Assembly: GCA_963823665.1 (NCBI GenBank)
Contig: CAWGMQ010000004.1
Location: forward strand, 1,856,001 to 1,920,000
Source of the DNA: an uncultured Planctomycetota bacterium
Lineage (GTDB): Bacteria > Planctomycetota > Planctomycetia > Isosphaerales > Isosphaeraceae
DNA length: 64,000 bases
Direction: 5' to 3'
The translations under genes were made by a program, and so were the position numbers. The notes below the pieces were generated by a model, which saw only the letters and a program-made list of their open reading frames with translations, was not told the origin of the DNA and did not search any database. This document shows, piece by piece, positions 25,089-51,226 of this stretch (its first letter is position 1; each line of letters starts with the position of its first letter).

Positions 25089-25128
25089 ACGACCACGGGA
25101 GGCTGACGCGGACAAGGGTTCCGGCGGG

Positions 25129-26881: not shown

Positions 26882-28194
26882 TCAGTTGCTGATAAACGAA
26901 TCCTGCTCCACCGGGAACTGCTTCAAATAAACCGGCAGCTTGCGCCCGCGGGCGTGATGATCTTCGAATACACCGTGCCGTCAATCGTATTCGAGATGAA
27001 CCGCACGGCCCCGTCGCAGAAGCCCATGTTGCAGCCGGCCGGGTGGCCGCTGTTGGAAAACGGATACGACCCCTCGAGAGTCAGCGACTTGCCGCCGTTG
27101 ATGTTCGAGTAGGTCGTCGCCTTGTTCGCCAGCCCCCAGCCCAGTCCGTCGATCTGCAACTGCACGTTAGGCGCCAGTTGGCCCGCCGTGCAATCGTTCG
27201 ACGCCGGCACTCCGCAGACATAAGACGACCCGATGAACGCCGTGAAGTTCGGCAGCGGGCACGACCAGTTCGTCTCACCGCCCAGGCCCGCCGGTGCATA
27301 AGGCGAGGTGCCGCCGATGCCCGCCAGCACGTTCTCGCTCAGCATGATCGTGCTTCCCGAGCCGTCCGTCACCCCCGCCATCGACGAACGCACGTTCCAC
27401 GGAATTCGATTCGTGATCCCCTGCGGGAACGTCGACTCGAGGAACATCACGCCCAGCTTCTGCGTGTTGGCCATATCCGCAACCCATTGCGGGGCTCCGG
27501 AGAGGGCAATACCCCATTTGAGCTGCGTGGGACCGCCCGTTCCATCCCCAAATTGCGTCCCATTGGCCAGCGGGTTCCACCCGGCCGGGATCACGTGCCA
27601 GAGCGCAAAACCGGTGTTCACCACGTAGCTCAGGTTTCCTTGCCCCACCTGCACCGTGTTGTCATCCGGGCATTGCAAAATCTTGAGGCCCGTCTGACCA
27701 ATCTTCAGATTGGTCAACTGGCCCGGCTGTATCCCTCCAGGCTGCGACGCCAGCACCGTGCCGGGGTCATAGTACGGAACCGGCAGCGAAATCGCCGAGC
27801 CCGACGGCGTGACCCACATCGACCATTGGTCCGACATGTCCGCCTGGTCAAGATAAGGCAGAATCGGCACCACCCAGCTATACATGGGCACGCCAACCGC
27901 GCCCGTGCCGCCCGGCAGCCACGACAAGACCGCCGAATTGGCCGGATTCGGAGCCGTCGGGATCACCTGCGTCGGATCCTCGCAGAACTCACCCGCCGGC
28001 GGAAACACGTTCCGCTGATTCACGTAACCAAGAATGCCCAGTGTAACGTTGTGCATGTTGCTCTGGCACTGCGCACGCCGGCCCGCCTCGCGGGCGGCAC
28101 CAATCGCGGGCAACAGCAGCCCGACGAGCACGCCGATGATGCTGATCACCACCAGCAGCTCGATCAAAGTAAAACCTCGACGACGACGGGTCAT
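26882..28194 (-). CDS. DUF1559 (SBP_bac_10) prepilin-like protein; frameshift near 26942
   Basis: RRG|FTLIELLVVISIIGVLVGLLLPAIGAAREAGRRAQCQSN; SWVVPILPYLDQ; CPDD; TDGSGSTIMLSE; SGHPAGCNMGFCDGAVRFI (H-X9-DG); shifted frame ends KLPVYLKQFPVEQDSFISN*. Confidence 0.92.
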
Positions 28195-28404
28195 GAGCGG
28201 TTCCTTTCAGAAAAGGAAAGTGAAGCTAAGATCGATTTTAGCCGCGCCAGCGCTCCTCCGGCAAGCTCCAGCGGCGACTCGAAGGCCACGTTTGTTGTGA
28301 TTCACTCATCTACTCATACGCGATTGCCCGGTACTTGTCTCACCCGGTCTGGTCAATTGTCAGTTGCGGCACCCCACGAAGCACACCGCCCCAGTGCCGC
28401 TCAG

Positions 28405-28480
28405 TGTCGCCTTTCGCTCCGCGAAAGTGCCTCCCCATATCCCCACTCCACCCATTGTCGCCTTTCGCTCCGCGAAAGTA
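28405..28480. repeat. Two REP-like copies of TGTCGCCTTTCGCTCCGCGAAAGT
   Basis: Hairpin CTTTCGC-TCC-GCGAAAG at about 28405 and 28457. Confidence 0.8.
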
Positions 28481-28582
28481 CGTCCCTGTATCCCTCACTC
28501 CACTCCCCGCTCCACGAACGAGCCTTTCCCCTCGCGGCCTCATCCCTGCCCAATCACACGTAAGCTCGCTCCCAACGACCCC

Positions 28583-28609
28583 GACAACTGACAACTGACA
28601 ACTAACAAC
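28583..28609. repeat. Heptamer tandem repeat (CAACTGA)n
   Basis: GACAACTGACAACTGACAACTAACAAC abutting the stop of the giant PilX-like gene. Confidence 0.8.
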
Positions 28610-31600
28610 TCACTGTATCCTATGCTTATAAACCAGCGTTTGCCGGAACCCCGTCGGCGACTGCGGGTTGAACCCCGTCAGCCGCAGCCGGTCAACCAGG
28701 TAGAACCCGCGATACCGCGTGCTCTTCCCATTGGCGGCCCCGATCTCCGGTCCCAGGATGTCGAACGCAGCCCGAGGGTCATACGCGATCATCCCCAGGT
28801 CTCCCTGCCGCTTCACCTCGAAGAACCCGATGGTCAGCCACACCGCGAATTGATGCGTCCGCGGCGTCGTCAAGTTCATCAGCCGCTGCATCTGCTCGCT
28901 CCGCCAGTACGGATGCTCCCGCATGTCCGCGGTCCCACCAGGATTTGTGGCGCTCGCCGTGCCGCCATTGTTACCGAGATGCGGGTTGGAGACCCCAGTC
29001 GGCAGCGGAACCGTCGTCGCCGCAGTGCCGGCCATGTCGCCGGAACATACGTGCTCGCGGCGTTTGCCCCGGGCCAGTATAGGTCCACATTACTCCGGGT
29101 CAGTGCCGCGTAAACCGACGGCGGCATGGACACAGAGTTCGTGTACAGCACCGGTGGCAGAGCGCCGGTAGGATAGTACGGCAACGTTCGTCGCATCGGC
29201 GCGGGGTTAACCGGCTCGTGTTGTTGAGATAAAGATCGCCCGAGCTGCTCGCGTTGCTCGCCCCGGTCGTCAGCGCCAAGCGTACCCGGCGTAGTGGCGC
29301 TGATTGTGCGCTCCCACCGAGGTCAGTATTCGACGTTCCACCTCGATAAGAATCGGCCACCTGGAATAGCCGCCGTACCGGAATCGGCGGCGGATACACC
29401 GGCTCATACGCCGTTCCCCACGGTGTCGTCCGCGTGCCGGTCGTTCCCACAGTGGTCGTCCCCGGCAGCGTGCCCGGATAGGTCGCCGTGGGGTATCCCA
29501 GGAACAGCGTCGGGTTCCTCACCCCGGGGTCGCCGGCGTAGTAGTTCGGCGGCTCACCGTGTTAGTCCGTCGCGCTCGTGTTGGCCACCGGGTTCGTGTA
29601 AGCCGAGGGCGGCAGCACGGCCGGCCGCATCATGCGTGTAATTGATGTCGGGATAAGACAGCGAATGGAACGGCCGCTCAGCCGGAATGCCCGTCGCCCA
29701 CTGATTGTTCGTCAGGGTGGACGGAATCCCTGCGGCGGAGTCCAGTTGGCGTCAACAGCCGAGTTCTGGCCAGTCGCTCCCAATCCATACCCGAACAAGT
29801 AACCCGAACCACCGTGCCGCAACGTCAGGAACTGCACCCACGCGGCTTTCAAGTTGTTGCTGTTTGGCCACGACGGACCCGTCAGCGTCATTGCCGTGGC
29901 CGGGTTGTTCACATTGAAGTACCCGCTCGAAATCGGGTCGAAGTCCGCCATTCCCGGCGACACGGATGCCGTCGTCGCGATCGGTGTCGCCGTCCCGGGA
30001 GTCCCGTTCGCCAGAGTCGACGTCACCACCAGCGGAACCGGGCTCGAAAACTGCGGAAGCATCCAGTTGGGATACGTCGGCGTGCTCCCCGCCGTGGGGA
30101 AGATGTAGTAGAGACTTCCCAGCGGCTGAATCTGGTTGAAATTCAGCAGGCTCTGCGTGAACTGGTTGCTCGCGTTCTGTGCGAGTGCCCGTGCTGTTGT
30201 AGAGTCTGCCCGTTCGTCTGGCTGATCGTCTGACCACCCGCAACGCTGAAGAACACCTCCTCGTCCATGATCAGGTTCAAATTGAGCTGCCCCGGCTTGA
30301 TGTCCTGCCGCATCCAGTCGAAGTTCGACCCGCTCGCCACCGGGCCGATCGCCCCCATCGCCTGGCTCGGCACCTCGAAGAACTCGAACATCTTGAACCA
30401 GCCGTCCGCCCCGTAGCCGCCTACCTGAAAACCCGTGTCGACGGTGATCGGCCCCGCCAAACCCCGAATAGAAGAACTCGTCGTTCAAGTACGGGTACGT
30501 GCGCGGCAGAACAGTCGACGCAGTCAACGTCGTGGACGCCGAATTGAAGTCGTACAGATAGCCGAACGGCAGCGAGCCCGTGTTGAACGCTTGAATCGAC
30601 GCGCTGGTCAACGTCGCCGTGGTCGTCGTCTGGTTGGTTCCCGTGCCAGTCGTCGTCTGCTGCGTCTGGGCCGCACCCACGATCGTCGAATTCGGCCCGT
30701 TGACCGGTGGAATCGACGTCGGGGTCACCGCGTTGAAGATCGCTGAGACAGTACCGCTACCCGGCGGCACGCTTTCCGTCGGCGCAAACTCGACAAACTG
30801 CTTCGTGAAAAGCCCCGGCGAGCAGCCCGGTACCAAGAGCAGCTCCGCTACGCTCGTGAAATCCCGATCGTTGAACGGGAAGTACTCCCACGGCTCAGAC
30901 AGACTGTTTCCCGAGCCCTGCTCGTACTCGTTGGCCCACCCCAGCGTGTGATAGATCGGCGGCGTGGCGAGGATCGAACCGCTACTGCCGCTATAGTAAA
31001 TACCCTGCGTACCCATGCTTTGCGAAGCAGTGCTGGGAACAACGATCTGTTCGGTGTAGCCGTACCGCGGGTCGACCGGAACACTCGTTGTCGACGTGCC
31101 GGTGTAGCTGGTGGATCCCGTCGGCGAGGGAACCGGCACGGCGTGCCCGCCCCGGAACGGCTGGTACCGCTGAACCGAATAAGGGTAGTTGGCGATCGTT
31201 TTCAGGGCAGTAGTCCCAGAACTATTACCAGTGATCGACGGGATCTGCGCAGGCGTAGCGCCCGCCGCATTAGCCACGAGCTTGCCGGTCCCATCGAGGT
31301 ACGGGAAGCGCATCGAATCAACCACCACCATCGGGTTCGAGAGCGAAACCGGCGCAAACAGGTTCGCCGGCCGCCGCAAGCAAACCCAGTAGTACCCAGA
31401 CGGACTCGTCACCGAGGTCGGCGAGATCGGCGCGAGCTGACCTGCCGAGGCGCTCATCGTCGGAATCTTCGTCTGGTAATTGGCCGGCAGCGTGTTCGTG
31501 ATCGCCGTCGTCGTCGTGCTCGTGTTCGTCAATCCAGGCAACACCCCCAGATACAAATTGATCGGCGATGTCGTCGAGTTCGCGCCCGTGAACGGATCGA

Positions 31601-34600
31601 GATTGGGCTTGATCGCCTGGATCATGCTGGCCGGGCTCGTCCCGCTTGGCGTCGCGTAGCCCTGCACCGTGTTATTGGCCGACCAGGTCGCGCCGGGTGC
31701 GGGCCCATTCCGCTCGTACGTCCCCGACCCCGACGCCAACGACGGAGCAGTATTCCCGATCACGTAGAAGTAATCGATGGCTAGAGGCGCCGTCCCACCC
31801 GTCGCCAGCGGCACGCCCGCCGCAATCGGATCCGGTATGGAAGTTGACCCACCTGTAAAATTGGTCGCCGTCGTGCCCGTCGCATAATTAGCAGAAGCAG
31901 GAGGGCCAGTAGGAACAGGAGGTGACGCGTAATAGCCCAGCGGCGTCAGCACAACGTCATAGCCGTCCGTCATCGTTCCCGGCGGCGTTCCCGCCGGCGG
32001 ATTGACCGGGTTATTCGGATTCGTCGCCGGAATACCCCCCGTCGGAGGGCTGAAAGTTGACTGCGCCAGCGGCGTCGCCGCATACAGGTTCCCGTACGGA
32101 ACAATTTGACCGCGATACGGATCGGGCCGGCTGTAAGGGTCGTCGCCCGTGAAGATGATGTCCCATGGTGCCCCCGGATACGGATCGATCACGCCCGTCG
32201 CACTCGGCGTGTTGTACACAAACCCGCCCAGGTTCACCCCTGGATTGAACCCCGCTTGCGTCGCAAATGAGATCTCCGGCGACGTCTGCGTGTTCACCAG
32301 CTCGATAAAGAACCGGTTCGCCCGCGCACCCGTTCCAGTGCCCGCCGTATTGTAAAGGAACGAATACGCCAGCACCTCGTTGATCGCCACCGGATTGTAC
32401 TCCATGCCCCATTGGTCGAGCAGCGGTACCGTGGCGCTGGGTGGGTTAATGCTCGCCAGCGCAAGAGTAACCGGCGGCAGCGTCGAGGGCGCCACCACCG
32501 TGGCCGTACCGGCGGTATTGAGCGCCGCGATTCCCAGAACAACCACGTCCGGGTTCTGCCAGTGCGTCATCGTGCTGTCCGGGTCCCGGAAGTCCACGAT
32601 GTTGATCACATACTGGCTGAGCTGCGCCAGCTCCTCGGCTGTGTCCACCGCCTTCGGCGGCAAGATCGACTTGAGGAGCTGATACGTGTCGTTGATCCAC
32701 TTCTGCCGCACCAACTCGTTGCAATCGTTCGAAACCGGCAGCGGATAATTCAAATTGATCTTGTTGTCCCGCTGGGCCAGCCCCGGCGTCATCAGACCCG
32801 ACACCCCTGGCACCAAAAGCCCCGCCGTCGTCCCCGCAGCGGCCGATTGAAATCCCGCGTTCGTACCCGCCGTGAACCGGCTGTTCGTCGGAAACACAGG
32901 CGCCAGCACTTGCGTCAAGTTTCCAGTCGCGGTGTTCAGCACGAACGTCGGCTGCACCGGGTTGTCGTTCGTCCAGCAAAAGTTGTTCAGGTCCCACGTA
33001 TCGAGCGCAAAGAGCCTGCGCCGCCGCGCACCGTCGAACCCGTTCGTGAAGCTCACAGGCGCAAGCTGCATGAGACGGCTCGACAGCGTCGCTCCGTCCA
33101 CGTCCTGCTGCCGGTACAGCCATTCCAGGTCGCCCGGCCCGAACGGCGAATCATAAAGCGGATTGGGGTAGTAATGATTCATCTCGTCGGCGTCGTTCAG
33201 GCCGTCCGAGTGAAACTGCGAGTTCACGTAATAGTCGTAGCTCGGCAGCGCATTCGGCACATTTCCATTCGTCGTATCCACGTCCAGATACTGCGCACCC
33301 GTGCCCGGATAATTCGGATTGGTCACACCGACAGGGCTCCCCCCCTCGTTCTGAACGGTGGCACCACCCGTGTAATTCTGGTTCGGGAAACGCCCCGCCT
33401 CCAGACCGTGCAGCGGGTTGCTCGTCAAGTCAGGCAGGTACGGATAGACGGTCGGCGTAGTCTGGGTGATGCCGGCCGGGCTCGGGTTCGGCCCGCTGCC
33501 GTAGTACTGGCTGTTCGGGCTGTTGCTGGGCTGCGGAAAATAGATCCCACCGAGATATGTGCCGGTGACGTTAGGCGTCACCACGCCGCTGCTCTCGGTG
33601 TACGTATAGCTCGTGTTGATGACCCCCGGCGATCCCGGCGGCCGGAAATAGCTGTTGAACTCCACTCTCCCGTACGAGTCGCCCCCACGGTTCACAACGG
33701 TGGTCGGGTTCGAGTTCCACGAGTACACATGCCCCGTCCCGTTGATGTCCGCCGGGGTAACCCACCGCCGCATCCGCTCGGAAGGGAACAGCAGCGCCCC
33801 CGCCGCGTCGTAATAGTCGGCGTCACCCACCTCACCACCGTTGACCACCACGCTGCCCGTGCCGTCGGATACGGTAACCGAGTTCAGGGGAAGCGGGCGC
33901 TGCGGGTACGGGTCGTACGTGTTGAAGTTGTCGTCCGCCGCGTCCGGCGGCAGCCCGCTCAAGATGTCCCGGATGTTGATCGAATACCCCGCCCGCACCG
34001 GATTCGCATAATTGATCCCCACCACGTTCACATACTGAGCACCCGACCCCGACGCGCCCGTCGGGTTCGCCGGATTGATGAACGGGCTCCCCGGTATCGA
34101 CTGCGCCTCTCCCCACCTCCCCGCTATCGCCGTGCTGCTCCGAACCACATAAGGTAGCCCCGTGCCGGTATCGATCCCCAGGTTGTCTCCCAGGTCCGCA
34201 ATGCCGTTCGGAAACAGCAGCGGCTGCTGCTCCTGAGTATGGCTCGTCGACCAAAAGACCATGTTCTTTTCACCGTTGGTCAGAAACGTCGGATCGCCGG
34301 CACGCGTCCCGGCCAGCAAATTGCGAAGCTGCGTCAGCCGCACGTCGATCCCGGCATTATCCACCTGCGTGTTGTTGGCAAGCTGGACGTTGTTAAACAT
34401 GTTGTAACCGTATCCGATGTGCGGCGGATCAAACGCCGCGACCCCGTCGAGCCCCGGCACGATCCCACGGTCAAATGCGTTCTGCAGCGCGTACGTCGGG
34501 TCAACCTCGCTGATCGAGTTCCCCAGGTGAACCGCGGTCCCTTGCCCGCCGTAGACTGACGACGGCGTCATCCCGAGGACCGTCGCCCAGGTAGGATCAT

Positions 34601-36014
34601 TCGGCGCATAGCCCCCGACCTGCGCCGCCAGGTTCCCCGCCGTGTTCAGCGGAATCCGCCCGTTCAGCCCGATCACCATGAACGCGAACAACGGCTTGTA
34701 CAGCCGCCCGCTCGCATCCCTCCGCGCCGGATAGCCCAGGTCCAGCCACACCGAATCCGGATTGCCGTCGCCGTCGTTGTCCACGTCATAATTAATCTTG
34801 CCGGTATTCGAGTCCGGCAGCAGGTCCGGAAACGTCGTCGCATCATGGCCGTCACTCCTGCGCGGCCGCAGGAACCGCGCAGCCGACTCGGCCCAAAGCG
34901 GGGCCGTGCTGATTAGGCCCCGTCGTCCAGTCGTTGATGTTGTTGTTGCCGTCAACGCGGATGATCCCCGGCCGGTGGAACGACGGAATCATCACCTGCC
35001 CGTCGGCACTCTGAATCGCCAGGAACCAGTTCTCCAGGTCGCACGCGTCATAATCCTCATCCATCCCGACCCCCGTCGCCCCCAGCCCCGGCACGTTGAG
35101 CCCGGGCTGGCCGAGCACCGGTATCCCCCCCGTATACCGGAAGTTCGGATAATAGCTCGCGGGAACCGAAAGACCGGTGATCGAATCGGTCCTGTTGATG
35201 TTCTGCCCCATCCCCGGCCCGTTGAACGCATGCAGCCAGCGCCCGTCCAGCGTGAAACTGTTCGGGCCCAGCGGCTGGTTGTTCGTCACCGCATTCCAGA
35301 TGTAAAAGCCCGGGAGCTGCGTGATCTGCGGCTGCGGCTGCGTCCCGCTCCCCGACGTTTGCACTCTGACCGTCTGGTTCACGAGCTCCGCGTTCCGATC
35401 GCTCGCCGGAATGTTCACCTGCAACGTCCGCCCATTCGTCGAGGCGGCGTTATACCCCGTGTCGCCAATGATCTCGAACGACTGCGTGATCGCCCCCGTG
35501 CCAAGATCCGAATTCGCTCCGGAATACGCGTTGGGGTTGCCCAGGAGCGTACCTTTGTAGCTCAACTGCATCGATCCAGCGCTGAAAGCTGTACCCGAAA
35601 AAGGCACTGTCATTCGACTGGATGTTGGTCGTCAGGTTGTAAAGCGTCGGTGCCCCGAGCGGATTCGGCTGCGTGACGCTCACGATCGAAAACGCCAGCC
35701 CCGTCGTGGGGCTGCACTCCCAGCAGAGCATTGCCCGTCGCGTCGTTGCCGTACATGTCCCGCGCCAGACTGTGCCCGCGGATCACCGAGCGAATGTCGT
35801 TCGTATCCGTGATGAGCTGCGACAGCCCGAAATCGATCAGCTCCTCGGCCTGCGGCTGGAACAGCGAAAGCATGAACCCCTTGTTGCTGATCTTCGATTG
35901 CGCGGCATAGGTCGCGAAAGTCACCCCGACAAGCGCCAACAGCCCCAGCATGGCCAGAACGAGCACCAGCACAATACCCCGGCGCTCCACCCCCGGTGAT
36001 CGAGAAGTCAACAT
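28610..36014 (-). CDS. Giant (~2460 aa) PilX/GspK-like minor pilin, split by several frameshifts
   Basis: ERRG|IVLVLVLAMLGLLALVGVTFATYA (class III leader, no Glu5); consecutive ORF pieces 35610-36020, 35450-35731, 34852-35613, 29712-34955, 30143-30460, 29100-29522, 28879-29196, 28610-29035; YDVDNDGDGNPDSVWLDLG, INIVDFRDPD, INLNYP, PGQLNLNLI, C-terminal NLTTPRTHQFAVWLTIGFFEV...RYRGFYLVDR. Confidence 0.78.
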
Positions 36015-36035
36015 GGCCAATCCCCCGTGTCTTTC

Positions 36036-36106
36036 GTAGGTCAGGCTTTGGCCTGACGTTTGTCTTCTCTTTCGCAGTCTCTCGTAGGTCAGGCTTTAGC
36101 CTGACG
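36036..36106 (+). repeat. Tandem pair of GTAG-type REPs GTAGGTCAGGCTTT(G/A)GCCTGAC
   Basis: Copies at 36036 and 36084 with hairpin GTCAGGC...GCCTGAC, between the PilW-like and PilX-like genes. Confidence 0.8.
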
Positions 36107-36111
36107 TTTTT

Positions 36112-38432: not shown

Positions 38433-38440
38433 GGTAAGCC

Positions 38441-40009: not shown

Positions 40010-40011
40010 GG

Positions 40012-41588
40012 TCAGGGCCCCCCTCTCGGTGTTCCCTGCTCGCTCGCCAGGAACGGATACCCCGGGTTGTAGATCGTCCCGTTCGCCGGATTGACGGGAT
40101 TGTCAAATTGCACGTTGTCATTGGTGGTGACCTGGCCCGTTCGCGTGAACAGCGTCACGATGCGATACTCGCCCTGGAGCGACGGCCCCGTATACGGCGT
40201 GCTCCCGAGCACAAGCTGCTGCTTGATGTTCCCCACCGGCAGATACACCGGCTGCCCGCTCACGATCGGCACCGGATTGTTGTTATTATCGAGATGGATC
40301 CCCCTCACGTCGCTCCGCTCCGACAGCCAGAAGTGAAAAAACGCACCCGACATGCCAAACGACGATGGAGTCGAATAGATCGTCGTTGGAACCACCGTCC
40401 CATTGGGATAAACCAGGATGTCCACATACCCCGAGAACGGATTGATCACCCCCGTCGGAAACTGCGACCGCTCCTGGAATGCATTCCCCCAGGTCGTCAG
40501 GTCCACCACCACATTGGTCGGCAGCGACACCTCCCGCGAATTGGCCGCCGGAGCCGGACGCCGCTGAATCGTGTACAGTTGACTGACACCCAGCCCCGTG
40601 GTCAAAACCGCGGCAGGCCAGGCCTCGTTCTCCCACTCGAACAGGTCGTCCGTGATATACGAGCCGCCCCCGTTGGCAACTTCCGCGTTGTAATTGTTGT
40701 CCACCCCGTCATACCCTTCATCGATCCAGCCGTTCTGGTTGTCGTCGAGCCCGTTGACCAGGAACAGGTACTCGGGCGACACCGTGACCGGGTTGGCTGC
40801 GGGTCCCTGAAACTCGGAGAACGAGTCTGGTGACACCTGGCCGGCCGGGCCCAGGTTCACAAAAAGCTCGGTGTTGCCTTGCTGCGGTGTCACGACCATC
40901 GGCCCGACAACCGTGTACCAGAGGCCCGAGCCGTTGATCTGGAGCTTGTCGCCAACCCGGATGTTCCAGAACCAGGAAGTCGGCGAGTTCAAGGTTCCAT
41001 TGTTTTCCACCACGATTTCCTTGACCATCAGCACATTGGCCGTGCCGTTGGGGCTGCCGAGGACACTGTTGTTAAGAAACGGGTAAAATCCCCCGCCATT
41101 TCCCGCCGGATAGGGGACGTTAAGAACGGCGCCCGGCACCGTTACGGACAGGCGCCAGCTTCCCTTCGGTATACTCCGGCGCCGCTTCGATCGGGATGAT
41201 CCGGTTCGCCGCCAGCGGCTGCGTCGGGTCGATCTGACCGTTCGCCATGTAGACGAGCGGGAAGGCCGGGTCCGGCAATCAGGCGAATGCCGCTCGGAGC
41301 CTGCGTCTGCAGCGCCGAATCCCGCGCACCCACCAGTGCAGCCTGCAGGATCCGCGCCGCTTCACTCACCTCACGGTGCGCCATCGCCGGTAAGACCACC
41401 GGCAACGCCACCGCGCTCACCAGCAAGATGATCAAGATCACCACCAGCAGCTCGATCAGCGTGAACCCACCGCGTCGGGAACGCGAACGCTTCGCCGCCA
41501 GTGCATGTGCCGTGCGCTCTGGCGAACGGCGAGGCACTCGCTCATGCAACTGACAACCGACAACTGACAACTGACAACTCCCAATCAT
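40012..41588 (-). CDS. Large (~525 aa) FimU/GspH-like minor pilin; frameshifts near 41280 and 41150
   Basis: RRGG|FTLIELLVVILIILLVSAVALP...EAARILQAALVGARDSA; bridging frame LPDPAFPLV...NRIIPIEAAPEYTEG; NGLDDNQNGWIDEGYDGVDNN; YRIVTLFTRTGQV. Confidence 0.8.
41546..41579. repeat. Heptamer tandem repeat (CAACTGA)n within the FimU-like leader
   Basis: CAACTGACAACCGACAACTGACAACTGACAACT; reads SCQLSVVGCQL on the minus strand. Confidence 0.8.
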
Positions 41589-43303
41589 CCCGACCCCCCG
41601 ATCCCGCTCACCGCTGAGAGATTGTGGTTGCTGATGTCGTCCTTGGCCGCCTCTCGAAGGTCATAGCTCGAGGGATGCGTCGGATCGTCCGACGATACGT
41701 TCTGGAAGCTGGGCGTCCCGGTCCCACCCGTCGGATACTGTGCCGTATTCAGGAATCCCGAAAGGCTCACCGTTCCTCCACCGAAGACATCCAGCGCAAA
41801 CGGCAGCGCATTGTTCTCATTCGCGATCAAGTACGACGCCGCGCCCGCGCCAAGCTGATTCATATCGGAATCCGCATACAGAAACACCCCGGGCTGCTTG
41901 TCGCGGCCCCCCGAGAGAATCAAGAACTTGGTGTAATACGCTCGCCGCAAATAGCTGCCGCTCCGGTCCCAGTACAAGCCGGTCGCATTCGAGGCCAGCG
42001 GCACCGGCTCGGTGAGCCGGTGAAAGAAGTACTCGAATGCCTCCACGCCTCCGCTGCCCCCCAGCGAGGCCGCCGGCGGCCAGCTCCCTGCAAACGGTGA
42101 GTTGTTGTTGGCCGCCAACTGCCCTCCCACTCCGGTCTGAGACCACCACTGCGGGGCCGTCAGTTGCAGATTCGGGTCCAGCGGATCCCGGTCCCGTTCC
42201 TGAAAAACAGCGCCAATGTTGACGTTCGCCGTCGTCGAGTCGTAGGTCTGATACGGCGGCAGCAGGTTGTTACTGTTCACGATGTTCGGGTCGGGAAGTA
42301 TCATCTGCCCGCGCTGAAGATCCGAGTGATACAGGATCGGCCATCGGAAAAACTGCAGCGGCTGCCCCCAGGCATCCACGAACTCCAAGAGCCCGTCGCC
42401 GTCGGTGTCCATCACCTCGCGGTCGGTGAAGTCATCCCGGCTGAAAACCGAGCCCAGCGGCCCCGACCCCTCCACCAGAATCGCATACAGCATCTCGGCC
42501 CGCGCCGTCGCATGCGCGTGGTTCGACTGAAGCAGCGTGCTGTCCCACCCCCCCTCGCCAATCTCGTCGATCAGATTGTTCTGATTGTTGTCCAGCCCAT
42601 CGAACCCGAACGGCGCGGTCCCCGGCAGGTTCTTGAACAATCCCGCCGCGGCCGTGTACGACGCACCCATGATCCCCAGTCCCGTGAACCCGTAACTCGG
42701 ATTCGACAGGTTCCCGTCGCCATAACTGCTGTTTGTCGGGTCGTTGACAATCGTATTGCCAATCGGCAGCACGTAAGGCGCGTAGGTGCCATTGGGCGAC
42801 ATCAGCGGGTTGGCCGTGCCGGCGGTATATCCCTGGCCCGCGAAGTTGATCGGGTAGTTCGGATCGCCCTGAAGAAAGAACACATCCGGCACTTCGCGCT
42901 TCAGGTAGTCATACCAGGCGAACGCCTGCGCCCGCGCGGAAGTCGTGAGATCCGAGTTGAGCTGGCCGCTCTTGATGAGCGAAGGTGCCGGCCCGTAGGT
43001 ACTGTTCCACACCGCCGCCATGTAACCGTGCGCCCAGTTGGGATCGGGCCGGCTTTGCATGAGCGCGTCCAGCCGGTCGTTGAGCCCCCCTTCCAGCTTC
43101 GTGATCAGCGACTGCGTGGCTCGCTCCTCCGCCCGCCGCGCCGCATCCGTCGCCGCCAGCAACACGAACGACAGGATGATCGCAATGATCGTGATCACCA
43201 CCAGAAGCTCGATCAGCGTGAATCCGCGCCGCGATCCCGCCCCGGCGCTCCCATGAGCCCGCGGCATGCTCCCCCATTCGTGCACCACACGACGAAGATT
43301 CAT
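41585..43303 (-). CDS. Large (~570 aa) prepilin-type (GspG/PilA-like N-terminus) protein
   Basis: SRRG|FTLIELLVVITIIAIILSFVL; DGLDNNQNNLIDE; DTDGDGLLEFVDAWGQPL; LILSGGRD; DDISNH. Confidence 0.85.
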   Translation of the reverse strand: MNLRRVVHEWGSMPRAHGSAGAGSRRGFTLIELLVVITIIAIILSFVLLAATDAARRAEERATQSLITKLEGGLNDRLDALMQSRPDPNWAHGYMAAVWNSTYGPAPSLIKSGQLNSDLTTSARAQAFAWYDYLKREVPDVFFLQGDPNYPINFAGQGYTAGTANPLMSPNGTYAPYVLPIGNTIVNDPTNSSYGDGNLSNPSYGFTGLGIMGASYTAAAGLFKNLPGTAPFGFDGLDNNQNNLIDEIGEGGWDSTLLQSNHAHATARAEMLYAILVEGSGPLGSVFSRDDFTDREVMDTDGDGLLEFVDAWGQPLQFFRWPILYHSDLQRGQMILPDPNIVNSNNLLPPYQTYDSTTANVNIGAVFQERDRDPLDPNLQLTAPQWWSQTGVGGQLAANNNSPFAGSWPPAASLGGSGGVEAFEYFFHRLTEPVPLASNATGLYWDRSGSYLRRAYYTKFLILSGGRDKQPGVFLYADSDMNQLGAGAASYLIANENNALPFALDVFGGGTVSLSGFLNTAQYPTGGTGTPSFQNVSSDDPTHPSSYDLREAAKDDISNHNLSAVSGIGGSG

Positions 43304-43342
43304 TCCAACCCCGCCCGTAGAGAACCCCACGGAAGGCTAAAA

Positions 43343-43386
43343 ACAACTGACAACTGACAACTGACAACTGACAACTGACAACTGAC
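43343..43386. repeat. Heptamer tandem repeat (CAACTGA)x6
   Basis: Six perfect units between two pilin genes. Confidence 0.9.
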
Positions 43387-43392
43387 CCGAAA

Positions 43393-44649: not shown

Positions 44650-44674
44650 CGTTCAGAAACTCCTTCGGAAGTCA

Positions 44675-45919
44675 TCATCCAGACAACTTGCTGATCAATG
44701 TAATGAGCGGCAGGAACAGTGCAATCACGATGAAGCCGATGATCCCGCCCAGGATGACGATCATGATCGGCTCGAGCAGGCTCACCAGGGATTCAACCGC
44801 CGTCTCGACCTCTTCATCGTAGTTGTCGGCAATCTTGTTCAGCATCGTGTCGAGCTCGCCCGTCTCTTCGCCGACGTCGATCATGTTCACCACGATGTCG
44901 TCGACAATCCGGGCTTCCTTGAGCGGCTGTGCAATTGTCTCGCCCTCGCGGATGCTCTCGTAAATCCGGGTGAAGGCCCGCTCGAAAACCGCGTTGCCCG
45001 CCGTGTCTCGCACGATGTTCAGCGACTCGAGAATCGGTACGCCCGACTGCACCAGCGTGCCTAAGGTGCGCATGGTACGGGCGACCGTCGATTTCTCGAC
45101 GATCGTCCCCATCACCGGCGTCATCAGCTTGATCCGGTCGCAGATATAAGCCCCCGTCTTGTTGCGATAAAGCAGCTTGACGAAGATCCAGATAAAGAGC
45201 GGCGTCAGGAACACGACGTAGAAATACTTGATCAAGAAGTGGCTGGCGTCGATCAAGATCGTCGTCATCCTCGGCAGCGGGATGTTGAAGTCTTTGAAGA
45301 TCGCCTCGAACTTGGGAATGATGTAATAAAGGATGAAGCCCACGATCACGCACGCCACCGTGATCACCACGGCCGGGTAAACCATCGCTGACTTGATCCG
45401 CCGTTTAAGCGACTGAGACTTTTCCTTGAAGTCCGCCAGACGCTGAAGAATCGCTTCAAGAGCACCGCCGGCCTCGCCGGCCTTGATCATGTTGCAATAA
45501 AGCCGGTCAAACGCCTTCGGATGCTTGGCGCACGCTTCCGAGAGCGTCGAGCCGCTCTCGATGTCCTCCACGATGTCGCCCAGCGCGTTCTTGAGCACGC
45601 CCGGCTTGCACTGGCCCTCCAGGATCTTGAGGCTCCGCAGGATCGGCAAGCCGGCATCCTGCAGCGTCGACAACTGCCGCGTGAACGTGCAGAGCTGCTT
45701 GGTGCTGATCCGGCCGATCGTGAATGATTTCTTCTTGCGCCGCCCACCCTTCTTCGCCGAGGCCCGCTGCTTGGCCTTCTTGGCCTTCTCGGCAATCTTG
45801 GTGACGAAGAATCCCTTCTGGCGAATGAGCTGCTGCGCTTCCTCCTGGGTTGCAGCGTCGATCGAGTCCTTGACCTCGCGCCCCGTGTGGTCCATCGCCT
45901 CATATTGGAAGGTCGGCAT
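44675..45919 (-). CDS. pilC: Type IV pilus / T2SS inner-membrane platform protein (PilC/GspF)
   Basis: FTRQLSTLQDAGLPI, KAGEAGGALE, IKSAMVYP, VGEETGELD, LLEP. Confidence 0.95.
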   Translation of the reverse strand: MPTFQYEAMDHTGREVKDSIDAATQEEAQQLIRQKGFFVTKIAEKAKKAKQRASAKKGGRRKKKSFTIGRISTKQLCTFTRQLSTLQDAGLPILRSLKILEGQCKPGVLKNALGDIVEDIESGSTLSEACAKHPKAFDRLYCNMIKAGEAGGALEAILQRLADFKEKSQSLKRRIKSAMVYPAVVITVACVIVGFILYYIIPKFEAIFKDFNIPLPRMTTILIDASHFLIKYFYVVFLTPLFIWIFVKLLYRNKTGAYICDRIKLMTPVMGTIVEKSTVARTMRTLGTLVQSGVPILESLNIVRDTAGNAVFERAFTRIYESIREGETIAQPLKEARIVDDIVVNMIDVGEETGELDTMLNKIADNYDEEVETAVESLVSLLEPIMIVILGGIIGFIVIALFLPLITLISKLSG

Positions 45920-45959
45920 GGTAGTGGTCCGTTGTCAGTGGTCCGTTGTCAGTTGTCTC

Positions 45960-47678
45960 TCATAAGTCGTCCAGCATCGTTTCACGTAGAATTTCTTCAA
46001 TACTGGTCAACCCGTTGTGGATCGATTGCATTCCCATTTCGCGGAGCGTTCGCATGCCAAACTTGCGGCCCGCGTTGCGGAAGTCGTCCAGCGACGCTTC
46101 GGCAACCACCATCTCCCGCAGGGTGTCGTTCATCACCAGAAGCTCGTAGATGCCCATGCGGCCCTTGTAGCCGGTGTTGTTACACCGCTCGCAGCCTTTG
46201 CCGTAAAAGAACTTCTTGCCCATCGCCGTCTCGGAATTCAGCCCCAGCTCCATGAGCACTTCCTGGGCCGGCATGAACTCCGTGCGGCAGTTGGCGCAAA
46301 TCTTCCGCACCAGCCGCTGCGCCAGCACCGCCTCGACCGTGGCCGTGATCAAGAACGTGGGCAGTCCCATGTCCCGCAGCCGCGTGATCGCCGACGGGGC
46401 GTCGTTGGTGTGCAGCGTCGTGAAGACGATGTGACCCGTCAGCGAGGCCTGAATCGAGATCTCGGCCGTCTCCAGATCACGCGTCTCACCCACCAGGATC
46501 TTGTCCGGATCTTGCCGCAGGATCGACCGCAGGCATGCGGCGAACGTCACGCCGATCTCGGCGTTGATCGGAATCTGCACCAGCCCCTCGATGTCGTACT
46601 CGACCGGCTCCTCGGTCGTGATGATCTTGTCTTCAATGCGATTCAAGTGGTTGAGCGTGGCGTAAAGCGTCGTGGTCTTGCCCGATGACGTCGGGCCCGT
46701 GACCAGCACGATGCCGTTTGGCTTCTCCACGATTTCCAGCCACGTCTTCAGTGTGTCGTCGGGCATACCCAGCTTCTTGAGGTCGAGCTGCACCACCGTG
46801 CGGTCCAGGATCCGCAGCACCACGCTCTCACCGAACATGGTTGGCAGCGTCGATACGCGGATATCCACCTCGTTGCCGCCTAACGCAAGCTGGATCCGTC
46901 CGTCCTGCGGCAGCCTCCGCTCCGCGATGTCCAGGTTCGACATGACCTTGATCCGGCTCGAAATCGCCGGGGCCAGGTGGCGCGGCGGGGGAACCAGCTC
47001 GTAGAGCACCCCGTCCACCCGGTACCGCATCTTGTACTCTTCCTCGAACGGCTCGAAATGGATGTCCGAAGCCTTGTCCTTGATCGCCAGGAGCAGCACC
47101 ATGTTGAGCAGCTTCCGCACCGGCGCAGCCTCGGCCATCTCCTCGATGGCCTCCAGATCGATCGTGTTCTCGTTCCGCCCCGCCATCGACGCCAGCCCCT
47201 TGTCCTGCTCGATCTGCTTCACGACGTCCTGAATGCTCTCGTGATGGCCCGCGTAAAGCCGCTCGATCGCCGCCATCACGTCCGACTCCGTCGCAATCGC
47301 CCCCTTCACCTCCGTGGAGAGGAACATCTTCAGGCTGTCCAGCGTCGACGGGTTCTGCGGCTCGGCCATCGCCACCGTCACGCTCTTGTCTTTCTTGTTC
47401 TGCGAGATCGGCACCACCTTGTACGCCGTGGCCATGCTCTCGTTCACCAGCTCCGTGAGCTCCGCGGGAATCGTCACATCCTGAAGCTTCACCACCTTCA
47501 TCCCGAGCTGTTCGCCCAGCGCCCGCATCACCTGGTCTTCCTTCACCAGGTTCATCTTCACCGCCACCTTGCCGATCAGCTCTGAACCCGACCGCTTCTG
47601 CTCCTCGAGCACCTTCCAGAGGCTCTCCTCGTCGAGATAGCCCATGTCGATCATGATCGTGCCGAGTTTTCGCGCCAT
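45960..47678 (-). CDS. pilB: PilB/GspE assembly ATPase with N-terminal MshEN-like domain
   Basis: ASDIHFEP, RLPQDGRI, Walker A GPTSSGKT, LRQDPDKILVGE, SLTGH, HTNDA, tetracysteine CANC...CERC. Confidence 0.95.
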   Translation of the reverse strand: MARKLGTIMIDMGYLDEESLWKVLEEQKRSGSELIGKVAVKMNLVKEDQVMRALGEQLGMKVVKLQDVTIPAELTELVNESMATAYKVVPISQNKKDKSVTVAMAEPQNPSTLDSLKMFLSTEVKGAIATESDVMAAIERLYAGHHESIQDVVKQIEQDKGLASMAGRNENTIDLEAIEEMAEAAPVRKLLNMVLLLAIKDKASDIHFEPFEEEYKMRYRVDGVLYELVPPPRHLAPAISSRIKVMSNLDIAERRLPQDGRIQLALGGNEVDIRVSTLPTMFGESVVLRILDRTVVQLDLKKLGMPDDTLKTWLEIVEKPNGIVLVTGPTSSGKTTTLYATLNHLNRIEDKIITTEEPVEYDIEGLVQIPINAEIGVTFAACLRSILRQDPDKILVGETRDLETAEISIQASLTGHIVFTTLHTNDAPSAITRLRDMGLPTFLITATVEAVLAQRLVRKICANCRTEFMPAQEVLMELGLNSETAMGKKFFYGKGCERCNNTGYKGRMGIYELLVMNDTLREMVVAEASLDDFRNAGRKFGMRTLREMGMQSIHNGLTSIEEILRETMLDDL

Positions 47679-48031
47679 GTGAATTGACCCGCAAGCACCC
47701 GATCAAGCCCCAAGGCATCCCGCCCGAGGAGCAAGACCAGATGGTGTTGATATCAAGATCGAGATTGAAATCGAAAATCGAGTCGCGTCTGATCAAACTG
47801 CTGGAAAGGCTGAGTCACTTGCGGGCGCGAACCACCCCGGGCAGACCCCTCCCGAACCGACACGAAACCGTCCTGCGAGCTGAGCACTTTTCGACGAACA
47901 TTGATGCAGACAGTACTACTGCTACGGGCCCGGAAGCCCCTCATGACGCACGGACGACCGAAAACCAGCACCGACCACCCGGGCCCCACACGCTTCGTAA
48001 CGTCCACCACAACCGTGTCATCCCGCCACCG

Positions 48032-49147
48032 TCACTCCTCGTCCTCGTCCTCGCCCTCCTCACTCTCATCAAAGATTCCTTTCTTGGCGTTCTCGACTCG
48101 CTCGCGCAGCTCGTTCACTTTTCGGGCCTTGAACAGAATCTCGTTTTCTTCCACCAGCCCCTGCCGCCACAGGTTGAACAGGCTGTCGTCCAGCAGAATC
48201 ATGCCGTGCTTCCGCCCGGTCTGGATCGACGAGTCGATACGATAAGTCTTGTTCTCCCGGATCAGGTTCGAGATGGCCGGCGTCACCACCAGCATCTCGT
48301 ACGCGGCGACCAGCCCCTTCGGCTTGCGCGGCAAAAGCGCCTGGGCCAGGATGCCAATGATCGCCACCGAAAGCTGCGTGCGAATCTGGTCCTGCTGGTC
48401 CTTCGGAAACACGTCAATTACGCGGTTTACCGTCCCTTCCGCCGAGTTCGTGTGCAAGGTCGCAAACACGATGTGACCCGTTTCGGCAGCCGTGATCGCC
48501 GCCGAGATCGTGGCCAAGTCACGCATTTCACCCACGAGAATGATGTCCGGGTCCATTCGCAAAGCACGCCGGATCGCCTCGGGAAAATCAGGAACGTCGA
48601 CACCGATCTCACGCTGATTGATAAGGGATTTATTATGCTTGTGAAAATACTCGATCGGGTCCTCAATCGTGATGATGTGCCGGTCCATCGTCGCGTTGAT
48701 CCAGTTGATCATCGAGGCCAGACTCGTCGTCTTGCCCGAGCCCGTCGGCCCCGTCACCAGGATCAATCCCCGCGGCCGCGTGATCAACTGCTCCATCACC
48801 GCCGGAAGTCCAAGCTGCTCGAAAGTCAGAAACTCGTTCGGAATCCGCCGCAGCACCAAACCCACATTGCCGCGCTGCTTGAAAATCGCAACCCGGAACC
48901 GGGCCATCTCACCGAACGCAAAGCCGAAGTCAGTCCCCCCAACCTCCTGAAGCTCTTGCTGACACCGCTCCGGCGTGATGCTCTTCATGAGCGCCACCGT
49001 ATCGGCCGGCTCGAGCACCTTCGTTGCCAGCGGACGCATGTGGCCATGAAGCCGCAACATCGGTTGCGACCCCACGGCGAGATGCAAATCGCTCGCCTTC
49101 TGGGAACATACCGTCTGCAACAATTTGTCAATGAGCAGCGTACCCAT
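48032..49147 (-). CDS. pilT: Type IV pilus retraction ATPase
   Basis: [51 protein letters not shown] (AIRNLIRE-type motif). Confidence 0.95.
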   Translation of the reverse strand: MGTLLIDKLLQTVCSQKASDLHLAVGSQPMLRLHGHMRPLATKVLEPADTVALMKSITPERCQQELQEVGGTDFGFAFGEMARFRVAIFKQRGNVGLVLRRIPNEFLTFEQLGLPAVMEQLITRPRGLILVTGPTGSGKTTSLASMINWINATMDRHIITIEDPIEYFHKHNKSLINQREIGVDVPDFPEAIRRALRMDPDIILVGEMRDLATISAAITAAETGHIVFATLHTNSAEGTVNRVIDVFPKDQQDQIRTQLSVAIIGILAQALLPRKPKGLVAAYEMLVVTPAISNLIRENKTYRIDSSIQTGRKHGMILLDDSLFNLWRQGLVEENEILFKARKVNELRERVENAKKGIFDESEEGEDEDEE

Positions 49148-49484
49148 GCCCGGAAAAGCCTCCGCCCTTGGACCGATGGACCCGTCATGCCAACCCGAGC
49201 ATAAGCCCGGGCTATTGACTTTTTCTCAGAAACCAGGTGTCCACCGATACGTGATAGCAGGCTTTTGGCTTACGATCAGGGACCTGTGCTCCCCGACTGC
49301 ATCATTATCTCGGTGGAAACCATCCACATCAAGAAATCGCACAACCTTTTCAGAAACAAGGGAGACCGCCCCAGACCCGCCAACCTGCCCGGCCTCCAAC
49401 ATCCGATCATCGCCACTCGACACGCTACCCGGCGACCAGCAGACCGCAACACTTCCGCCCCGCCCCCCCGCCGCTCGCCGCACC

Positions 49485-51226
49485 TCAAGGCTTCTTGGCG
49501 GCTGCCGGCTCTGAGGCAACCTCACGCTGAGTGATCCGCAACACTTCGTCAATCGTTGTCAATCCCCGGATCGCCTTGATCATGCCGTCCTCGAACAGCG
49601 TGTGCATCCCCTGCTTGCGAGCCATCTTACGAACATTCTGCGTCGATTCGCCCTTGAACGCCATCTCGCGAACCTGCGGCGTCATCGTCATCAATTCGTA
49701 GATGCCCATCCGCCCGCGATAACCCTTCTTGCTGCAGTTGCACACCCCTTCCCCTTCATGAAGTTCGCCTTCTTTATGACCTCCGGACGAAGCCCCAAAC
49801 CCGCCAGCAAGTGCGCCGGTGGCTCGTACCGCTGACGACATTTCGGACAAACCTTCCGAACTAACCGCTGCGCCATGATTGCAAGCACTGAACTCGCAAC
49901 CAGGAACGGCTGAATACCAATGTCCACCAAACGTGTAATGGCACTGGCCGCATCGTTCGTGTGCAATGTACTGAAAACCAAGTGTCCCGTCAGAGAGGCC
50001 TGAATCGCGGTCTCTGCCGTCTCAAGATCCCGAATTTCACCCACCAGCAGGATGTTTGGATTTTGCCGCAACATGGCACGAATAATGCGTGCAAACGTCA
50101 TCCCGATCTTCGCCTTCACCTCGCACTGGTTCACGCCCGGCAAGTAGTATTCAACAGGGTCTTCCGCCGTGATGATCTTCACGTCGGGACGGTTCAGCTC
50201 GTTGAGCGCCGCGTACAAGCGTCGTCGTCTTTCCCGAACCCGTCGGCCCCGTCACCAGCAAAATGCCATTGGGACGTTTGATCAGTTGCTTGAACCGCCC
50301 AAAGTCCTCGTCGCCAAATCCCAGGTCCTGAAGACCCACCTTGATGTTGTCACGGTCCAGAATCCGCATCACCACCGATTGTCCGTGACTGGTTGGAATG
50401 ATGCTCACCCGCATGTCGATGTCTTTGCCCGCGACGAGGATCTTGATCCGGCCGTCCTGCGGTCGCCGCTTCTCGGCAATGTCGATGAACCCCATGATCT
50501 TGATGCGGCTCACGATCGCACCCAGCAACCGCCGGGGTGCGCTGTCCCGCTCCATCAGCACGCCGTCGATCCGGTAGCGGATCCGCACCCGGTCCGCGAA
50601 CGGCTCGATGTGGATGTCGCTCGCCCGCATCGTCACGGCTTCCTGAATGATCAGGTGCACCAGCTTGATGACCGGAGCATCGCCTTCTTCTAACGTGTTG
50701 GTCGTACCCGACTTCGCTGGTCGTCGATCCATCCTCGGCAAAGTCGATCGCCGTGTCGGTGAATTCCTGAAGCATCGAGTCGACCGACTCGGTCTCCGAC
50801 GATCGCGCTGCCATAATACTTGTTGATCGCCTCGACAATCGCTTCTTTGGGCGCCAGCGCCACTTCGATCTCGCGATTGAGCACGAACCGCAGCTTGTCG
50901 ATCGTCTCGAAATCGAGCGGATCGTGCATGATCACCCGGATCGTCCCGCTCTCCTGCGAGAGCGGCATCACGATGTTCTCGCGCGCGAGCGATTCCGGAA
51001 CCAGCTCGATCACCGACGCCGGAATCTCGATCTCGCGCAGCTCGACGAACGCAAGCCCGTGCTGCTCCGCCTTCGCCTTCATGATGTCGTCAGCCCCGGC
51101 GTAGCCCAGCTTCATCAGCGACTCCTCGATCGCCGAGCTGTCCATCCGGTGCGCTTCTTTAAGCTGATCCGGCCCAATCACGCCGCGCCGTACCAGGATT
51201 TCCGTCCAATCCCGAGTCTTCGCCAT
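49485..51226 (-). CDS. pilB: Second PilB/GspE assembly ATPase; four apparent frameshifts (about 50805, 50715, 50220, 49740)
   Basis: Pieces: MAKTRDW...[77 protein letters not shown]...EVLRIT. Confidence 0.9.

What the first reader, a model, noticed from the sequence alone, without database searches (positions are those of the whole stretch)
26882..51226. ~24-kb type IV filament locus with a supersized minor-pilin set
Seen: a co-oriented run pilB-pilT-pilB-pilC followed by seven class III-leader genes. Four follow the fimU-pilV-pilW-pilX order and signatures (AAR.L..AL..AR; G|ITLTE; G|VTLVE; G|IVLVL without Glu5), but are ~525, ~520, ~770 and ~2460 aa. Established: Pseudomonas/Neisseria minor pilins and T2SS GspH-K are roughly 120-350 aa, and PilT marks a retractile filament. 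No small major pilin, PilY1, PilMNOPQ or PilD lies in the window. Inference: a planctomycete retractile filament with a very large tip complex, loosely parallel to the Verru_Chthon cassette; possibly related to planctomycete fibres, adhesion, surface motility or macromolecule capture.
Basis: partly seen in the sequence, partly recalled or inferred. Interest (0 to 1): 0.85.

Follow-up and report, generated by a model that had tools for sequence, protein, structure and literature searches.

The report
Planctomycete pilus machine with giant tip
These genes encode a pilus-type filament machine found across planctomycete bacteria, whose tip protein is predicted to be a secretion-system tip subunit swollen about sevenfold; its likely counterpart is essential for growth in a laboratory species, so it likely builds the unexplained surface pores and fibres of these cells.

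Summary
The minus strand carries pilB-pilT-pilB-pilC and seven class III leader genes; the large sizes are real, since intact orthologues match them, and the frameshifts are probably assembly errors. The locus is near-universal and mostly single-copy in the class (89 of 111 genomes). Two corrections: the 2,450-aa protein models as a GspK/XcpX tip pseudopilin (Z 11.1) with huge insertions, and the first pilin models as a GspG-type major pseudopilin (Z 7.3, middling). pilM, a 1,500-aa secretin and pilD lie elsewhere in the genome. So it is a hybrid: a type IVa motor with retraction ATPase and a type II secretion-like G-G-H-I-J-K pilin set. A locus with the same order, labels and lengths in Planctopirus limnophila (Plim_0410-0401) was published as 'related to secretion'; its transposon data list nine of ten genes, plus pilM, the secretin and pilD, as essential. 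That orthology is inferred, not sequence-checked. Best reading: an essential envelope-spanning machine, likely the crateriform structure with its 12-nm polymer-binding fibres, drawing on the DUF1559 pilin pool. New variant of a known kind.

The parts
49485..51226 (-). pilB1: assembly ATPase with MshEN/N-terminal domain, in five frame pieces
   Evidence: Pfam MshEN and T2SSE on the pieces; colinear with intact orthologues in L016 and L054
48032..49147 (-). pilT: retraction ATPase, intact
   Evidence: TIGR01420 444.6 bits, cut-off 319.1; one strong match in 76 of 91 phylum genomes
45960..47678 (-). pilB2: second assembly ATPase, intact, with c-di-GMP-binding motif
   Evidence: T2SSE 451 bits, MshEN; TIGR02538 615.9 (cut-off 675.65), TIGR02533 603.3 (cut-off 630.25), NF053729 40.3 (cut-off 38)
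44675..45919 (-). pilC/gspF inner-membrane platform
   Evidence: T2SSF two stretches, 230 bits
43393..44649 (-). P1: enlarged GspG-type major pseudopilin, 399 aa mature
   Evidence: N_methyl; model of a 257-aa orthologue, pLDDT 85, best matches EpsG Z 7.3 and PulG Z 6.2
41585..43303 (-). P2: second enlarged pilin, likely GspG-type, 545 aa mature
   Evidence: N_methyl; C-terminal motifs like those of P1 in the consensus, GspG likeness recalled; profile match to P1 covers only the first 60 columns; not folded
40012..41588 (-). P3: GspH/FimU-position minor pilin, about 483 aa mature, frameshifted
   Evidence: GspH 39.3 bits (cut-off 80); intact orthologues 451-594 aa in own family
38441..40009 (-). 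P4: GspI/PilV-position minor pilin, 473 aa mature, intact
   Evidence: weak PilV and Verru_Chthon B hits; match in 35 of 41 genomes; weak support for pairing with P5
36112..38444 (-). P5: GspJ/PilW-position minor pilin, about 755 aa mature, frameshifted
   Evidence: colinear with intact L003 orthologue; profile match in 89 of 111 class genomes
28610..36020 (-). P6: giant GspK-type tip pseudopilin without Glu5, about 2,455 aa mature, frameshifted
   Evidence: colinear with intact L001 orthologue; model of 1,200 residues of a 1,242-aa orthologue, pLDDT 84, pTM 0.89, matches XcpX Z 11.1 and GspK Z 10.6
26923..28194 (-). P7: DUF1559 (SBP_bac_10) prepilin with H-X9-DG tail
   Evidence: PF07596 104.5 bits, N_methyl; TIGR04294 over cut-off

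Best explanation
The locus encodes the motor, platform and pilin set of a conserved type IV filament machine that likely spans the planctomycete envelope, is likely needed for growth, and likely forms the large crateriform structures and their 12-nm fibres. Shown: two assembly ATPases, a retraction ATPase, the platform and seven prepilins here; pilM, a 1,522-aa secretin frame and a prepilin peptidase elsewhere in the genome. Predicted by folding: P6 is a GspK scaffold whose sheet is closed by its C-terminal strands, with about 900 to 2,100 inserted residues including a beta-sandwich; P1 is a GspG. Inferred: PilD matures the pilins; K, J, I and H assemble first on PilC as a bulky cap; the G-type subunits form the base; the scattered DUF1559-size prepilins supply a variable shaft; PilB extends it through the giant secretin and PilT retracts it, drawing bound polymers toward the periplasm, while the trans-envelope complex pins the inner to the outer membrane. 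Loss of assembly would be lethal, loss of retraction less so.
For: Anatomy. Conservation: P5 profile matches 89 of 111 class genomes at E<=1e-22, mostly one locus; all six pilins in order in 48 of 53 loci of families f1, f4, f5, f6, f7. Folds. P4-P5 pairing: weak support, score 0.54 against best control 0.01; the mark was reached by 116 of 157 solved complexes and 2 of 215 mismatches, but at 0.60 or under by 18 solved and both mismatches; contacts agree at least 74%, partner pLDDT at least 73; may reflect likeness to solved GspI-GspJ. P. limnophila (PMC10632474): Plim_0410-0401 labelled PilB, -, PilB, PulF, PulG, PulG, FimT, PilV, PilW, unknown; insertion index 0 to 0.0056 for nine genes, 0.022 for the pilT-position gene, 0.128 and 0.271 for the flanks; pilM, secretin Plim_0641 and prepilin peptidase Plim_1841 are also in the essential list. 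Lengths back-calculated from the indices fit: 565, 370, 570, 419, 352, 370, 360, -, 468, 1,599 aa; secretin 1,566 aa. Crateriform structures join both membranes, number about 104 per cell and bear 12-nm dextran-binding fibres (PMC5394234). 73 N-methyl matches in this genome; 91 N-methyl plus SBP_bac_10 proteins in T. immobilis, 25 detected (PMC8567305).
Against: No experiment ties these genes to crateriform structures or fibres. Orthology to the P. limnophila genes rests on order, labels and lengths, not on sequence. The pilT-position gene is not in the essential list, so retraction may be dispensable. A 250-kDa cap may be too large to pass a secretin (inference), which favours a periplasmic piston. 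The GspG/GspK folds point to type II secretion. That DUF1559 proteins polymerise was not tested. The locus is split in families f3, f8 and f65-f69: P5 stands alone in 21 of 25 loci. Essentiality could come from toxic build-up of unassembled pilins.
Confidence: 0.5

Rival explanations
1. It is an essential type II-like secretion system: a short periplasmic pseudopilus of P1/P2 with an enlarged H-I-J-K cap recognises folded envelope proteins or lipoproteins and pushes them through the secretin, and PilT resets the piston. No long fibre is made.
For: GspK and GspG folds; pilB2 scores about equally as GspE and PilB; the published reading is 'related to secretion'; retraction gene tolerates more insertions; a giant cap need not cross the pore.
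Against: A conserved PilT and a PilM-led operon are type IVa features; T2SS are described as having lost PilT (PMC6668835). It leaves the large prepilin pool unexplained.
Confidence: 0.27
2. It is a retractile adhesion, stalk or surface-motility pilus with a large adhesive tip; the low transposon counts reflect toxicity of stalled assembly or selection during library growth, not a vital product.
For: PilT and a c-di-GMP motif on PilB2; P6 carries a beta-sandwich and many calcium-loop-like motifs, as adhesins do; planctomycetes have 6-nm stalk fibres.
Against: Low counts cover every class of part at six separate loci, including the peptidase and the pilins themselves; three other pilQ-like genes are deletable (PMC11958385); near-universal single-copy retention.
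Confidence: 0.15
3. The machine is mainly structural or serves budding: it tethers the two membranes or marks the division pole in cells that lack FtsZ, and the filament never cycles much.
For: Crateriform structures fasten the inner membrane to the wall; essential list; ftsZ loss in this lineage.
Against: No direct link; two assembly ATPases and PilT imply dynamics; one family (f28) lacks the pilT match, 0 of 5.
Confidence: 0.08

Closest known systems
Type II secretion system pseudopilus (GspG; GspH-I-J-K, structures 3CI0, 5VTM, 4LW9, 5WDA)
   Same: Gene order G-H-I-J-K after E/F-type genes; K lacks Glu5; K and G folds match.
   Different: Two G-position genes; subunits two- to eightfold larger; PilT, two PilB and PilM present; secretin frame 1,522 aa; GspC/L/M not searched.
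Type IVa pilus (PilB, PilT, PilC, PilMNOPQ, PilD; FimU-PilV-PilW-PilX-PilY1 tip)
   Same: PilT over cut-off, MshEN-bearing PilB, PilC, PilM operon ending in a secretin, PilD.
   Different: No small PilA in the locus; P1 is closer to GspG than to any T4aP pilin (Z 7.3 vs 4.2 or less); the X-position protein is a giant GspK, which may replace PilY1 (inference; PilY1 not searched).
Verru_Chthon cassette (TIGR02596-02600)
   Same: A run of prepilin-like genes with one very large K-like member; UniRef gives two P6 orthologues the name cassette protein A; a 1,191-aa mostly Verrucomicrobiota cluster scores 0.93 by features.
   Different: No cut-off met; here tied to pilB-pilT-pilB-pilC and mostly single-copy.
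Planctopirus limnophila Plim_0410-0401 (PMC10632474)
   Same: Same count, order, labels and matching lengths.
   Different: Published only as secretion-related with six unknown proteins; its pilins are smaller (last gene 1,599 aa vs about 2,470). Sequence identity not checked.

Membership tests
Type IV filament superfamily (generic) | ATPase, inner-membrane platform, class III pilins, secretin, prepilin peptidase | tested here: met
   secretin and peptidase are at other loci, their link is inferred
Type IVa pilus | PilT retraction ATPase | tested here: met
   TIGR01420 444.6 vs 319.1
Type IVa pilus | PilB | tested here: inconclusive
   615.9 bits, under the 675.65 cut-off, and about equal to GspE 603.3
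Type IVa pilus | PilM | tested here: met
   one match in the genome, G000:C10:163796-164812
Type IVa pilus | PilN, PilO, PilP | tested here: inconclusive
   four frames between pilM and the secretin have no Pfam match at E 0.01
Type IVa pilus | PilA-type major pilin | tested here: inconclusive
   P1 model ranks GspG above T4aP pilins; P2 and DUF1559 not folded
Type IVa pilus | PilX and PilY1 tip | not tested
   P6 matches GspK/XcpX; PilY1 was not searched in the genome
Type II secretion system | GspK tip pseudopilin | tested here: met
   Z 11.1, rmsd 3.5, 232 of 259 aligned (XcpX); Z 10.6, rmsd 4.1, 252 of 280 (GspK); next row Z 6.9; on an orthologue
Type II secretion system | GspG major pseudopilin | tested here: met
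   Z 7.3, rmsd 3.8, 106 of 119 aligned (EpsG); PulG Z 6.2; middling Z, on an orthologue
Type II secretion system | GspI-GspJ pairing | tested here: inconclusive
   weak support, 0.54 vs control 0.01
Type II secretion system | no PilT | tested here: not met
   pilT sits between the two pilB genes; PilT loss in T2SS per PMC6668835
Type II secretion system | GspC, GspL, GspM and a secreted substrate | not tested
   no search run; substrate not testable with these tools
Verru_Chthon cassette | TIGR02596, 02598, 02599, 02600 over cut-off | tested here: not met
   29.0 vs 70, 18.5 vs 51.4, 22.4 vs 256.5; no cassette A match in 14 of 14 P6 orthologues
DUF1559 (SBP_bac_10) prepilins | N_methyl + PF07596 + H-X9-DG tail, for P7 | tested here: met
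Crateriform structure | trans-envelope complex bearing 12-nm fibres | not testable with these tools
   described in PMC5394234; no gene named in the passages read

The most novel reading that the evidence does not exclude
This is the genetic blueprint of the crateriform structure: an essential type IV filament machine of free-living bacteria that joins a retractile motor to a secretion-type cap with a 150-260 kDa GspK, polymerises dozens of interchangeable DUF1559 pilins into 12-nm substrate-binding fibres, reels macromolecules into the periplasm and rivets the two membranes.
Probability: 0.35. Interest if true: 0.93.

Novelty: new variant of a known kind. Interest (0 to 1): 0.78.

Why it matters
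The molecular identity of crateriform structures, of the 12-nm fibres and of macromolecule uptake in planctomycetes was called unresolved in PMC5394234, and the role of the large DUF1559 family is unknown. This locus gives named, tractable candidate genes in P. limnophila. Type IV filament systems are normally dispensable for growth of free-living bacteria (own knowledge), so an essential one needs explaining whichever rival is right. A GspK scaffold that carries 900 to 2,100 extra residues also stretches what tip complexes and secretins are known to handle.

Tried and rejected
P6 has no Pfam match in 14 of 14 orthologues, no solved-sequence match at E<=1, and one GspK match at E 0.095. Foldseek alone gave nothing at E<=0.001 for either model, though GspK ranked first for P6 (E 0.08) and EpsG gave the only full-length alignments for P1. 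The named-genome scan keyed on the generic leader motif and returned mostly unrelated prepilins; only L054 and L092 of 73 loci were this system, and no P. limnophila locus came back. The phylum search with the P1 profile scored only 17 candidates per genome and cannot show absence. A search with one L054 pilin found 0 of 101 genomes. Profile comparison of P1 and P2 aligned only the helix. No RNA holder was listed. The search of 50%-identity representatives never ran. A profile test of the pilins in the distant loci L166-L172 was not done, so their G/K labels rest on leader pattern, position and size. No earlier findings of this scan came up. Rejected: that the sizes are an artefact of frameshifts (intact orthologues); that the locus is a decayed pseudogene cluster; that it is lineage-specific. 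Dropped before the counts: L005 (lone second P4 copy) and L014 (a DUF1559 false match).
Full report
Observation. The window is G000:C4:1856001-1920000 of a 16.46-Mb, 12-contig assembly. On the minus strand lie pilB1 (five frame pieces), pilT, pilB2, pilC and seven prepilin genes, P1 to P7. pilT passes its family cut-off; pilB2 scores just under both the PilB and GspE cut-offs and carries a c-di-GMP motif. Five leaders were located by script with Glu at position 5; P7 shows it too and P6 does not. Mature spans are 399, 545, about 483, 473, about 755 and about 2,455 codons for P1 to P6; P7 is a DUF1559 protein. The class is inferred to be Planctomycetia from named homologues of P6 (Gemmata, Thermogemmata, Gemmataceae) and a named locus with this system (L092).

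Are the sizes real? Yes. In the window's family intact orthologues have median mature lengths of 375, 535, 504, 467, 688 and 2,162 aa (P6 range 1,884-2,444, n=22); in family f4 312, 333, 395, 440, 565 and 1,658; in f5 271, 277, 341, 312, 348 and 1,472. The window's P6 is colinear with the unbroken P6 of the same genus, whose locus is broken elsewhere, and near-identical short-read contigs show indels at four places, one at the P3 break. The variable inserts are rich in Pro, Gly, Ser, Thr and Asn (43-49% against 31-37% in the cores), and calcium-loop-like motifs are far above shuffled counts in all six families, for example 41 against 1.5 in 49 P1 sequences (the motif is recalled).

Distribution. 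P4 matches 35 of 41 relatives. The P5 profile matches 89 of 111 class genomes at E<=1e-22, mostly at one place; 18 of the 22 misses are in family f5, where P5 is short and divergent. Of 80 loci examined, all chosen because they matched P1, P4 or P5, the 53 from families f1, f4, f5, f6 and f7 show all six pilins in order in 48; two are cut by contig ends, one lacks P2, two have genes the profiles missed. In 25 loci from f3, f8 and f65-f69 the locus is split or reordered, with P5 alone in 21. Across the phylum a single strong pilT match occurs in 76 of 91 genomes, none in family f28 (0 of 5). In 20 such loci outside the class, pilB adjoins pilT in 20, pilC follows in 12, a pilin run in 6, and a protein without Glu5 of 1,019-1,375 aa ends the run in 4 (by leader pattern only). 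A Sedimentisphaerales locus has the same motor genes and smaller pilins (L054).

Rest of the machine. The genome has one pilM, followed by four unclassified frames and a 1,522-aa secretin frame (C10, L027), two more secretins, and a full prepilin peptidase on C8. It has 73 N-methyl matches, most in frames of 300-470 aa; these were not each tested for DUF1559. A second cluster on C8 has ordinary small pilins (L028).

What the pilins are. Sequence libraries are silent beyond the leader. A 1,200-residue part of a 1,242-aa P6 orthologue folded as one confident body (pLDDT 84, pTM 0.89). Against 48,161 chains the top matches are XcpX (Z 11.1, rmsd 3.5, 232 of 259 residues) and GspK (Z 10.6, rmsd 4.1, 252 of 280), spread from model residue 11-17 to 1,200; the next row is Z 6.9. 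Residues 635-842 form a beta-sandwich with middling matches to lamin Ig-like and glycosidase accessory domains (Z about 6), which shows no function. The other inserts were not searched alone. A 257-aa P1 orthologue (pLDDT 85) matches EpsG (Z 7.3, 106 of 119) and PulG (Z 6.2) ahead of all type IVa pilins (4.2 or less). P4 with P5 from one orthologous locus gave weak support for a pair (0.54, control 0.01, counts given above). P2 and P3 were not folded. The set therefore reads G, likely G, H, I, J, K.

The P. limnophila link. PMC10632474 (seen: passages, section 9, searches of supplementary files 1, 2 and 5; Supplementary Data in MOESM4 could not be opened) describes Plim_0410-0401 as four type II secretion genes and six planctomycete-restricted unknowns. 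Its essential-gene figure lists nine of the ten, labelled PilB, PilB, PulF, PulG, PulG, FimT, PilV, PilW and unknown, along with PilM, secretin Plim_0641, prepilin peptidase Plim_1841 and two more prepilins. Insertion indices are 0-0.0056 for the nine, 0.022 for Plim_0409, 0.003-0.016 for Plim_0076-0079, 0.0019 for the secretin, 0.023 for the peptidase, and 0.09-0.27 for most flanking genes; the paper's section cut-offs were 0.013, 0.022 and 0.25. Lengths back-calculated from the indices agree with this anatomy, including 370 aa at the pilT position, 1,599 aa for the last gene and 1,566 aa for the secretin. I did not see the P. limnophila sequences, so orthology is inferred. The authors warn that condensed DNA can mimic essentiality; the spread over six loci with well-hit flanks argues against that. 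Polar effects cannot explain the last gene, since the next one is well hit. Three other pilQ-like genes are deletable (PMC11958385, passages).

Mechanism. The parts give a retractile type IVa motor with a secretion-type pilin set. PMC5394234 (passages) describes large crateriform structures that join both membranes and bear 12-nm fibres binding dextran. A fibre of that width would suit subunits of about 40 kDa such as DUF1559 or P1/P2 (inference; ordinary pili are about 6-8 nm, recalled). PMC8567305 (passages) shows that many N-methyl plus SBP_bac_10 proteins are expressed in T. immobilis. PMC8303584 (passages) noted that trans-periplasmic tubules of planctomycetes resemble a type IV pilus apparatus. 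I put 0.5 on the crateriform/fibre machine, 0.27 on an essential secretion piston, 0.15 on an adhesion or motility pilus with indirect lethality, 0.08 on a mainly structural role. That it is a type IV filament machine with GspK- and GspG-type subunits is much surer, about 0.9.

Novelty. The locus has been noticed in print, and eggNOG already labels three of its pilins. Nine searches of the held library (combinations of planctomycet, type IV pili, pilin, pilT, pilB, DUF1559, SBP_bac_10, Verru_Chthon, crateriform, secretin, T2SS) found no paper that names the giant protein as GspK, reads the whole machine as essential, or ties it to crateriform structures. Most subscription papers are not held, and Mahajan et al. 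2020 (Mol Biol Evol), which treats the prepilin expansion, could not be read. PMC6668835 (passages) has no occurrence of 'planctomycetes' in the search listing. PMC11131199 (passage) only cites the fibres. Verdict: new variant of a known kind, interest 0.78.

Noticed in passing
window 14456-25088 (+): Two overlapping frames of 2,115 and 1,452 aa with 7 and 15 Ig-like Big_3_5 stretches; probably one giant surface protein split by a frameshift, ending 1.8 kb from P7 on the other strand.
   Followed up: partly
window 28571-28631, 41547-41607, 43344-43404, 45919-45971: Short arrays of a 7-base unit between genes of the locus, in both orientations; soil contigs pile up on them, so they are dispersed repeats.
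   Followed up: no
window 25123-25298, 28397-28494, 36029-36113, 39885-39984: Pairs of 33-86-base direct repeats in intergenic gaps or the long P4 leader, each pair a different sequence.
   Followed up: no
L028 (G000:C8:756000-775900): A second type IV filament cluster with small pilins (frames under 200 aa after the leader), platform, secretin and ATPase.
   Followed up: partly
G000, 19 T2SSE matches; L031:9246-12136: Several further ATPases of this family, some as adjacent pairs away from any pilin gene; they may be alternative motors.
   Followed up: no
L148, L149, L153, L092: In these loci the K-type gene precedes the J-type gene; L153 has a 2,846-aa K-type protein, and its genome has three J-type loci.
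   Followed up: no
L005: A lone second copy of the I-type pilin in G022, whose main locus (L004) lacks P2.
   Followed up: no
family f28: No strong pilT match in 0 of 5 genomes that are 99-100% complete; the system may be lost or diverged there.
   Followed up: no
PMC10632474 supplement: Two further prepilins (Plim_0304, Plim_1856), a second PulF-type gene (Plim_3389) and two ExeA-like ATPases are in the essential list; they are candidates for further parts of the machine.
   Followed up: no
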